NCBI RefSeq assembly: GCF_963921235.1
Contig: NC_086108.1
Span: 12,400,001 to 12,464,000, forward strand
From: Mobula hypostoma
Taxonomy: Eukaryota
DNA: 64,000 nt
Reading direction: 5' to 3'
A model generated the notes under the pieces. The model was not told the DNA's origin. It saw nothing but the letters and a program-made list of their open reading frames with translations, and searched no databases. Below are positions 8,470 to 9,610 of the stretch, piece by piece. How positions within the stretch are numbered: position 1 is the first letter of the stretch; each line of letters opens with the position of its first letter. A program made the position numbers and the translations under genes.

Positions 8470-9000
8470 TTCAATAAACTTAAATACCACCATCACCTGA
8501 TTAAGTGTATCTTCAAGCTCAGCTTCTTCAGGATTCTTGGAGCTTTTCTTCAGTAGAGAGTCACAGCATCGTGCCAATAATTCCGGAGATTTATTTGGTG
8601 ACTGAGCCATTTTCTGTGACTGCTTTATTATTTGGGAAACGGCCACAAGCCTTATCTAAAGCAGCCACAAAGCCAGCATCATTGTTGAAAGCTGACATCA
8701 CTAGTGCATTATACTTCTTACGAACATCCAGAATTGTCTGTACATACATCTTGGGATCACTCAGAGCAGCTTCTCCACATTTCTCAATGGCAGCCAAGCC
8801 CTGGTTATGGATACGTGTTTCTACAAGTCTCTTCAGCTCCCCAAGGCCATCTTGGATTCGAGAGACTAAGTTATACTTTTATCTAAGTCCTCATTTCTAT
8901 CAGCATCTAATAAATTCTGAAATACCGTATGAAAAATTTCTCGATGTTTCTCAAAAGGTACTTGTTCACATTTATGAGCTAGTTCATCCTGGGTACTTTC
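8470..9000 (-). pseudogene. CUL1: Processed cullin-1 fragment B (middle region), frameshifted
   Basis: [27 protein letters not shown] / [57 protein letters not shown] / [44 protein letters not shown] matches vertebrate CUL1 as I recall it. No introns. Confidence 0.95.
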
Positions 9001-9150
9001 ATCACATTCACAGCAGACCCAATGTCGATTGAGTCACAGATTCCATTCAACACTTTCACTAGAAAACCTGTAATCTTCCCACTGCTGGGTATAAAATTTC
9101 AAAACACTTTCATCCATCAAACCTTCACCATCCTTAAGAGGGTTTGTCAA
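8998..9150 (-). pseudogene. CUL1: Processed cullin-1 fragment A (N-terminal cullin repeat)
   Basis: Hand translation [31 protein letters not shown] / KVLNGIC / [12 protein letters not shown] versus CUL1 [52 protein letters not shown]. Confidence 0.93.
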
Positions 9151-9430
9151 TTTTCTGGTTTCAATAGCATATTTTACCAATCATTGTACAACAGGGAATG
9201 TGTGTATGAAGTCCAGACAATGAATGTGATGTGATTTCAAATGGTGCGGGCACTTCATGTTTGGCAACATGGACAATTTTCTCAGTCAAGGCTATTTTCT
9301 GACCAATTGTAGAATTTTCTTGAAAAAGCAAATCAACATCAATATCAAAGTTGCATGTTGTAATACACCATGTCATACCACCCCCTGCCTTGTCAAATGG
9401 TGGCAGTCCCTTAATCTTTGCTCTGAAGTA
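9151..9430 (-). pseudogene. CCDC93: Processed CCDC93 N-terminal fragment
   Basis: [53 protein letters not shown] / [38 protein letters not shown] matches CCDC93 [92 protein letters not shown]. Confidence 0.93.
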
Positions 9431-9532
9431 TGATTCAGTTTGTGACAAGACATTGGCTTCTTCTAATTGTCTTTGTAATTGCACAATTTTCTCATTTGAT
9501 ACCCGGGAGCTCTGAGTCACTTCAATCAAGTT
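9431..9532 (-). pseudogene. ROCK1: Rho-associated kinase (ROCK1/2) coiled-coil fragment
   Basis: [30 protein letters not shown] resembles ROCK1 VSQNSQLANEKLSQLQKQLEEANDLLRTES. Which paralog is uncertain. Confidence 0.75.
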
Positions 9533-9549
9533 GCTCTCTGGGCGGAGTT

Positions 9550-9610
9550 TCAGTAGGGAACTCTGGCTGGCGAGGGCTTGTAGGATAGTGTTTGTGTCCG
9601 CTGGGTCCAA
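9550..9610 (-). pseudogene. Gypsy gag N-terminal remnant
   Basis: [20 protein letters not shown] begins 16 nt after the 5' LTR and resembles MDPA.. gag starts of fish Gypsy elements. The start codon reads TTG. Confidence 0.65.

What the first reader, a model, noticed from the sequence alone, without database searches (positions are those of the whole stretch)
8990..9610. All four identifiable cargo junctions are in frame
Seen by hand translation: gag to ROCK and ROCK to CCDC93 lie in one open frame (ORF 9161-9817, ...[10 protein letters not shown]...). CCDC93 to CUL1-A reads GCT ATT GAA ACC AGA AAA|TTG ACA AAC (AIETRK|LTN). CUL1-A to CUL1-B reads ECDE|STQDE. Four random joins would all be in frame about 1 time in 81. 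The present frameshifts and stops lie inside fragments rather than at joins. Inference: the ancestral element may have encoded one gag-ROCK-CCDC93-CUL1 fusion ORF, kept open for RNA stability or for a protein function. Caveats: the gag-ROCK join is poorly resolved, and the join from CUL1-B to the unknown piece is out of frame with that piece's longest ORF.
Basis: partly seen in the sequence, partly recalled or inferred. Interest (0 to 1): 0.8.

Follow-up and report, generated by a model that had tools for sequence, protein, structure and literature searches.

The report
Ray retrotransposon with in-frame host cargo
This is a dead copy of a jumping-gene family in a ray genome that carries spliced pieces of four host genes joined mostly in frame, likely through copy-choice errors plus a passing advantage for RNAs that stayed translatable, but the family spread with the fused reading frame already broken, so a working fusion protein is unlikely.

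Summary
The joins are real and shared by the family. ROCK|CCDC93 is in frame in 31 of 32 copies, CCDC93|CUL1 in 27 of 27, and CUL1-A|B in 27 of 28. The 'unknown' piece is host BOD1L1, and its join is in frame too (11 of 12).

The fusion-ORF inference mostly fails. CUL1-bearing copies share a stop before CUL1 (26 of 29) and two CUL1 frameshifts. None of 26 reads from the gag start into CUL1, and shared changes look neutral (omega-like 0.89).

'1 in 81' is overstated, because shared short sequences between coding genes are in frame about 44-68% of the time. Still, 15 of 21 propagated joins are in frame against 8.9 expected (P about 0.006; 0.04 under a generous null). Founder joins of three other cargo families also read in frame.

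Verdict: a known kind (LTR-mediated retrocopy), with a likely transient RNA-level frame filter and no protein function. The scan found this family before at another locus (e1-7942729).

The parts
10565..10569 (.). Target-site duplication CTCTC (other copy at 7330-7334)
9627..10564 (-).
   Evidence: about 88% identical to the 3' LTR
9551..9626 (-). Leader and first ~20 gag codons; the start codon position (9610) reads TTG
   Evidence: gag identified on the longer copy L037 by Pfam PF03732/PF16297/PF19259
9537..9550 (-). Short second gag remnant, left by nested gag deletions
   Evidence: L046-type 5' end
9431..9536 (-). ROCK coiled-coil fragment, spliced across a host intron
   Evidence: host exons on C1
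9151..9430 (-). CCDC93 N-terminal fragment (4 host exons, spliced); frameshift near 9275 shared by 6 copies; family-wide stop near 9182
9000..9150 (-). CUL1 fragment A; family-wide frameshift near 9057
8475..8999 (-). CUL1 fragment B (6 host exons, spliced); family-wide frameshift near 8876
8125..8474 (-).
7963..8124 (-). Integrase C-terminal remnant with the chromodomain-like part deleted; joined to BOD1L1 out of the integrase frame
   Evidence: (SH3_Tf2-1, below cut-off)
7955..7970 (-). Polypurine tract next to the 3' LTR
   Evidence: sequence
7335..7954 (-). 3' LTR

Best explanation
The element is a dead copy of a non-autonomous Ty3/Gypsy family whose interior was likely built step by step by reverse-transcriptase template switches onto co-packaged host mRNAs, and its joins are mostly in frame, likely because short shared sequences between coding RNAs favour the same frame and because early carriers that stayed translatable were probably copied somewhat more often; the CUL1-bearing form spread with its fused frame already broken.

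Shown: spliced cargo from four host genes; a graded series of forms (gag-PR-RT start|BOD1L1|IN; then internal deletions; then ROCK and CCDC93; then CUL1); mid-exon joins, most with 4-10 shared bases; family-wide stop and frameshifts; neutral-like substitutions.

Inferred: mobilisation in trans by RT-bearing relatives; the order of steps; and the RNA-level filter. The most likely filter is escape from nonsense-mediated decay, or packaging of translating RNA, when ribosomes run on through the pol frame.
For: Series of forms and join phases. Host exons have AG/GT ends and the introns are absent from the cargo. Joins are mid-exon except one (exon ends). RT-bearing relatives share gag and protease. 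In-frame bias of shared short sequences.

Excess beyond that bias: 15 of 21 vs 8.9, P 0.0055. Without two inferred nested deletions, 13 of 19, P 0.02. Joins on the path to the window form are 14 of 16 in frame, against 1 of 5 for late subfamily deletions.

Other cargo families in this genome: SUDS3 in frame in 17 of 20 copies; RBM25 in 12 of 25, the modal state, with 5 unreadable; myosin stop-free for up to 504 codons across an RT-remnant join though about 30% identical to the myosin genes compared.

Dead ORF at the burst. Literature: readthrough under 1% can inhibit NMD (PMC9661723, passages); Ty1 Gag binds translating RNA and packages in trans (PMC3945221, passages).
Against: The filter is not needed for spread: at least 29 CUL1-bearing loci arose from a broken-frame source. 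The three CUL1 joins probably formed downstream of an existing gag frameshift and stop, where frame cannot be sensed; those three alone have P about 0.07 under the null.

In the older forms, shared stops occur as often as neutral expectation (5 vs 3.8), and fixed changes are uninformative (0 stops vs 1.4 expected).

My null uses exact runs only and probably understates the bias from longer imperfect similarity; at p=0.5 per join P is 0.04. I curated the join list by hand. Two of the three other families were found with a search that included 'frame'.
Confidence: 0.5

Rival explanations
1. Template switching at shared short sequences plus chance explains the frames; translation never mattered.
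For: In-frame share of exact matches reaches 50-70% for 6-10 nt between host coding sequences. Many joins share whole codons. The family multiplied with a dead frame. Out-of-frame joins also spread (BOD1L1|IN, 40 of 44; CUL1|BOD1L1 3471, 6 of 6 out). Substitutions are neutral.
Against: 15 of 21 against 8.9 expected. CCDC93|CUL1 has almost no shared sequence yet is in frame. The SUDS3 join lies a few codons before the SUDS3-like Met and is still in frame. The myosin family keeps a long open frame over heavy amino-acid change.
Confidence: 0.33
2. One translated gag-ROCK-CCDC93-CUL1-BOD1L1 frame existed through the CUL1 capture and was kept for RNA stability; the shared breaks came just before the burst or entered by recombination between family members.
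For: All cargo-cargo joins are in frame. The family is mosaic: L046 shares the CUL1 form's gag deletion but not its stop, and L036 the reverse. Only about 1% of sites are fixed between capture and burst.
Against: All four pre-CUL1 forms found have the upstream gag frameshift. The search for the long ROCK piece had 5 candidates and all were scored. Two CUL1 frameshifts were fixed within that short interval. No copy of 26 reaches CUL1 from the gag start.
Confidence: 0.12
3. The fusion protein had a function (for example a dominant-negative cullin or CCC-complex fragment) and was selected, as for maize Bs1.
For: Fixed differences lean synonymous (10 S, 13 N, 1 stop; omega-like 0.52). The CCDC93 N-terminal domain is largely present.
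Against: The fixed class includes host-lineage synonymous change; two 'fixed' BOD1L1 indels proved to be host-lineage changes. Shared 0.89 and private 1.07 are neutral. The class contains a stop. The start codon is lost in 22 of 26 copies. The CUL1 pieces lack both ends and a middle segment.
Confidence: 0.04
4. The joins were made by splicing or trans-splicing, which would tend to keep frame at exon ends.
For: One deletion endpoint (BOD1L1 3366) sits at an exon start.
Against: The other joins in the window form are mid-exon. That one has a 10-nt shared sequence and no GT donor.
Confidence: 0.01

Closest known systems
LTR-mediated chimeric retrocopies of animals (Tan et al. 2016, PMC5131818; abstract passages, 12 passages and section 8 read)
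   Same: Partial spliced mRNAs replace the internal ORFs between two LTRs; microsimilarity at switch points; several parental genes in one element; further rounds as a non-autonomous element.
   Different: Here a whole series of intermediate forms survives, so joins can be ordered and phased. In the passages read, Tan et al. discuss frame relative to the parental protein, not the phase of joins or a frame filter.
Maize Bs1 (read only as passages of the review PMC13317346; the primary paper was not held)
   Same: LTR element with pieces of three or more host genes forming a hybrid reading frame.
   Different: Bs1 is reported as transcribed and translated. Here the hybrid frame is broken in the common source of the copies and evolves neutrally.
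Defective interfering RNAs of plus-strand viruses that keep an open frame (recalled; searches gave no paper that I read on this point)
   Same: Helper-dependent genomes whose internal deletions are biased to stay in frame without need for the protein.
   Different: There the requirement is lasting; here it is at most transient, and it is shown only statistically.
Acutely transforming retroviruses with gag-onc fusions (recalled)
   Same: Host mRNA captured in frame with gag or pol; helper-dependent.
   Different: There the fusion protein is the selected trait. Here there is no envelope gene in the partner read and no protein constraint.

Membership tests
LTR-mediated retrocopy (Tan et al. 2016) | Host sequence replaces internal ORFs between two LTRs, with target-site duplication | tested here: met
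LTR-mediated retrocopy (Tan et al. 2016) | Cargo is spliced mRNA, partial, sense strand, without poly(A) tail | tested here: met
   host exons and introns; no poly(A) at any join
LTR-mediated retrocopy (Tan et al. 2016) | Microsimilarity at switch points | tested here: met
   4-10 nt shared at most joins; CCDC93|CUL1 has almost none
LTR-mediated retrocopy (Tan et al. 2016) | Further mobilisation as a non-autonomous element | tested here: met
   at least 29 dispersed CUL1-bearing loci with the same joins; RT-bearing relatives
LTR-mediated retrocopy (Tan et al. 2016) | Transcription from the LTR | tested here: inconclusive
   no RNA holder listed; laid contigs were parental mRNAs
Bs1-type functional chimeric gene | One open hybrid ORF | tested here: not met
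   0 of 26 copies read from the gag start into CUL1; family-wide breaks
Bs1-type functional chimeric gene | Purifying selection on cargo protein | tested here: not met
   omega-like 0.89 shared, 1.07 private; 0.80-1.12 in older forms
Bs1-type functional chimeric gene | Translated product | not testable with these tools
   no ribosome profiling or proteomics available
Ty3/Gypsy retrotransposon (chromovirus-like) | Ty3-type gag, zinc knuckle, protease | tested here: met
   Pfam PF03732, PF16297, PF19259 on L037; CCHC and DSG motifs read
Ty3/Gypsy retrotransposon (chromovirus-like) | Order PR-RT-RH-IN in the autonomous partner | tested here: met
   read from L117/L142 translations; domain names from recalled motifs (YLDD, integrase core), not from a Pfam scan
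Ty3/Gypsy retrotransposon (chromovirus-like) | Chromodomain at the integrase end | tested here: inconclusive
   chromodomain-like motif read by eye in L142, label recalled; deleted in the window form

The most novel reading that the evidence does not exclude
Helper-dependent LTR elements of ray genomes pass through a translation filter. Captures and deletions that keep ribosomes running through the pol frame are preferentially propagated, whatever protein results. These elements thus act as in-frame exon shufflers; four independent founder captures (BOD1L1, SUDS3, RBM25, myosin) are in frame, and the young myosin family still shows the filter at work.
Probability: 0.35. Interest if true: 0.72.

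Novelty: new member of a known kind. Interest (0 to 1): 0.42.

Why it matters
In-frame fusions in retroelement cargo are often read as signs of a new gene. This family shows that they can arise and spread with no protein function, and it supplies a measured null: shared short sequences alone give about 45-70% in-frame joins between coding genes. If the remaining excess is real, RNA surveillance or co-translational packaging shapes which chimeras survive. That would raise the supply of translatable chimeric genes in vertebrates, and it is testable in the many cargo families of ray genomes. The family also explains spurious 'uncharacterized protein' gene models in rays.

Tried and rejected
Expression. 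No RNA holder was listed. Contigs of 4 of the 24 listed runs, laid at 85% likeness, covered only separate pieces, with loose ends at 9522, 9431, 9154, 8474/8450 and 8180, as parental mRNAs would; none bridged a join. This is no evidence on expression.

Identifying piece X. The ESM Atlas gave no usable hit and Pfam gave none for the large host exon.

Tree. The cargo tree is star-like and resolves only subfamily B and tandem pairs, so it cannot order the lesions.

Myosin parent. The eight sarcomeric myosin stretches fetched match the cargo at only about 30% and are probably not the parent, so that divergence is not measured against the true source.

Joins left out of the 21-join tally:
- one ambiguous pol deletion (phases 3/3/1);
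- a tandem expansion in gag;
- single-locus joins: inter-gene switches 5 of 6 in frame, small deletions 2 of 7 in frame;
- three poorly fitted mis-chained rows.

Splicing as the source of the joins was rejected (mid-exon positions).

Literature. Searches listed no paper on this ray family or on join phase in LTR cargo; only open-access full text was searched. PMC2899935 and PMC2981159 were not held. I did not open Tan et al.'s supplementary tables, which list junctions and ORFs and may bear on join phase.

Full report
What is there. The finding lies inside a 3.2-kb LTR element on the minus strand (LTRs 10564-9627 and 7954-7335, TG...CA ends, CTCTC target duplication, LTRs about 88% identical). 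The genome is 3.5 Gb. Its BOD1L1 and CUL1 translations are identical to proteins annotated in the devil ray Mobula hypostoma. A search with the interior gave 60 matches from 40 scored of 842 candidates. I examined 29 CUL1-bearing loci, 29 older-form loci and a handful of intermediates; these are samples, not copy numbers.

Parents. All exons used have AG/GT ends (one wrongly cut last CCDC93 exon was dropped), and the cargo lacks the introns. RT-bearing relatives with the same gag and protease exist. Gag ends after the zinc knuckle with protease in the -1 frame in 5 of 8 readable copies, which suggests ribosomal frameshifting (inferred).

History. Mapping every copy on the parents gives a graded series:
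(1) gag-PR-start of RT|BOD1L1|integrase tail;
(2) deletions in BOD1L1 and in the integrase tail;
(3) further deletions;
(4) gag|ROCK|CCDC93|BOD1L1 (four loci);
(5) the window form, with CUL1 and gag cut to about 90 nt, and subfamilies with later deletions.
Gene models matching stage 2-3 forms exist in Hemitrygon akajei and Mobula birostris, so the family is older than this species. Copies are 6-13% from the host genes, similar across stages, so the steps were close in time.

The observation. The gag|ROCK junction is composite. The original gag|ROCK switch is in frame (3 of 3 scored), but all four stage-4 copies carry a frameshifting gag deletion upstream of it. Stage 5 inherits that shift (17 of 26 out of frame). 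The window's subfamily regains the gag frame by a shared 8-nt loss between direct repeats in ROCK, but 11 of its 12 copies have lost the ATG. The exit join BOD1L1|integrase is out of frame (40 of 44).

Was there one fusion ORF? Not in the source of the present copies. A stop 11 codons before CUL1 is in 26 of 29 copies covering the site, and the host base is absent in 27 of 27 CUL1-form copies. One CUL1 frameshift is in 26 of 27 copies and another in 23 of 26 at two neighbouring placements, with more copies at nearby positions. From the gag start position no copy of 26 reads into CUL1; the longest frame is 149 codons, and only 4 keep ATG. The stop is also in stage-4 copy L036, so it probably predates CUL1, although L046 and L036 show mosaic inheritance and recombination cannot be excluded. 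Against a mutation-type-matched expectation, shared changes give omega-like 0.89 and private 1.07. Fixed changes give 0.52 (10 S, 13 N, 1 stop) but include host-lineage change. Older forms give 0.80-1.12, with shared stops at neutral frequency. Nothing points to a protein function.

Is the frame pattern more than chance? The flat one-third null is wrong for template switching. Exact matches of at least 5-7 nt between the host coding sequences are in frame 43-68% of the time, and 24-39% for BOD1L1 against RT or integrase. All 21 propagated joins give 15 in frame against 8.9 expected: P 0.0055, or 0.02 without two inferred nested deletions, or 0.04 if every join had p=0.5. Joins on the path to the window form are 14 of 16 in frame; late subfamily deletions are 1 of 5. 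I curated this list by hand, and the exclusions are given under Tried and rejected.

Other families. Following leads from earlier findings, I checked three other cargo families on different Gypsy backbones. SUDS3 is in the protease frame in 17 of 20 copies. RBM25 is in frame in 12 of 25, with 4 and 4 in the other phases and 5 unreadable. A young myosin family (96-98% identical copies) has RT remnant and myosin rod in one frame, stop-free for up to 504 codons, though only about 30% identical to the myosins compared (true parent not found). Two of the three were reached through a search containing 'frame', so this is biased support.

Mechanism. Shown: spliced capture, mid-exon joins with shared bases, serial steps, multicopy spread, dead frame, neutrality. 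Inferred: template switching in particles of autonomous relatives, as in Tan et al. 2016 (PMC5131818; passages and section 8), and a weak filter for translatable RNA in the earlier forms. A plausible basis is that rare ribosomes running past a stop strip UPF1 and blunt decay (PMC9661723, passages), or that Gag binds translating RNA (Ty1; PMC3945221, passages). That paper also notes that defective Ty1 elements are mobilised efficiently, which fits spread with a dead frame. The three CUL1 joins probably formed behind existing breaks and may be microhomology plus luck (about 0.07).

Verdict. The inference of one maintained gag-ROCK-CCDC93-CUL1 protein is not supported. The element is a new member of a known kind, already noted by this scan at another locus (e1-7942729, my L025/L026). 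The residual excess of in-frame joins is the part worth pursuing.

Noticed in passing
L153:1462-2652 (-); L200-L219: Young myosin-cargo LTR family (815 first-look candidates, 96-98% identical). The degenerate RT remnant and myosin rod share one frame, open up to 504 codons, despite about 30% identity to the myosins compared. It is a candidate for open-frame selection without protein constraint.
   Followed up: partly
L152:7071-7469 (+); L180-L199: SUDS3-cargo family: protease runs in frame into SUDS3 a few codons before its Met-like start in 17 of 20 copies.
   Followed up: partly
L151:1950-2330 (-); L155-L179: Old, very large RBM25-cargo family (3435 candidates); the pol|RBM25 join is in frame in 12 of 25 copies, the modal state.
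   Followed up: partly
L047:2100-3600 (+): One copy with four extra switches (CCDC93|RT|BOD1L1|CCDC93|BOD1L1), including a second, separate capture from CCDC93 mRNA; 3 of 4 are in frame.
   Followed up: partly
L036:1421, L046, L047, L066: All four pre-CUL1 ROCK-bearing copies read Met where the host ROCK exon has Leu, shortly after the short gag frame ends; a possible re-initiation site in weak context.
   Followed up: no
L019/L020, L028/L030, L087/L088, L048-L050: Tandem or inverted clusters of the element, some sharing an LTR; C116 holds a cluster of very reduced CCDC93-only forms.
   Followed up: no
window 9627-9650 and copies: The last ~15 bases of the LTR before the gag leader differ in almost every copy while the flanks are conserved.
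   Followed up: no
window 40303-47560: A 7.2-kb array of a 35-nt unit, 92-96% matches, with strong strand skew.
   Followed up: no
window 17888-18346 and 19244-20038: GC-rich stretches with 64-nt and shorter tandem units, resembling another LTR-like element.
   Followed up: no
window 4900-7190, 12800-13400: Decayed LINE-like coding fragments left of the element and a transposase-like fragment to the right (labels recalled, from ORFs).
   Followed up: no
P0247, P0248: Public 'uncharacterized protein' models in Mobula birostris and Hemitrygon akajei are copies of this family's protease- or gag-BOD1L1 forms.
   Followed up: partly
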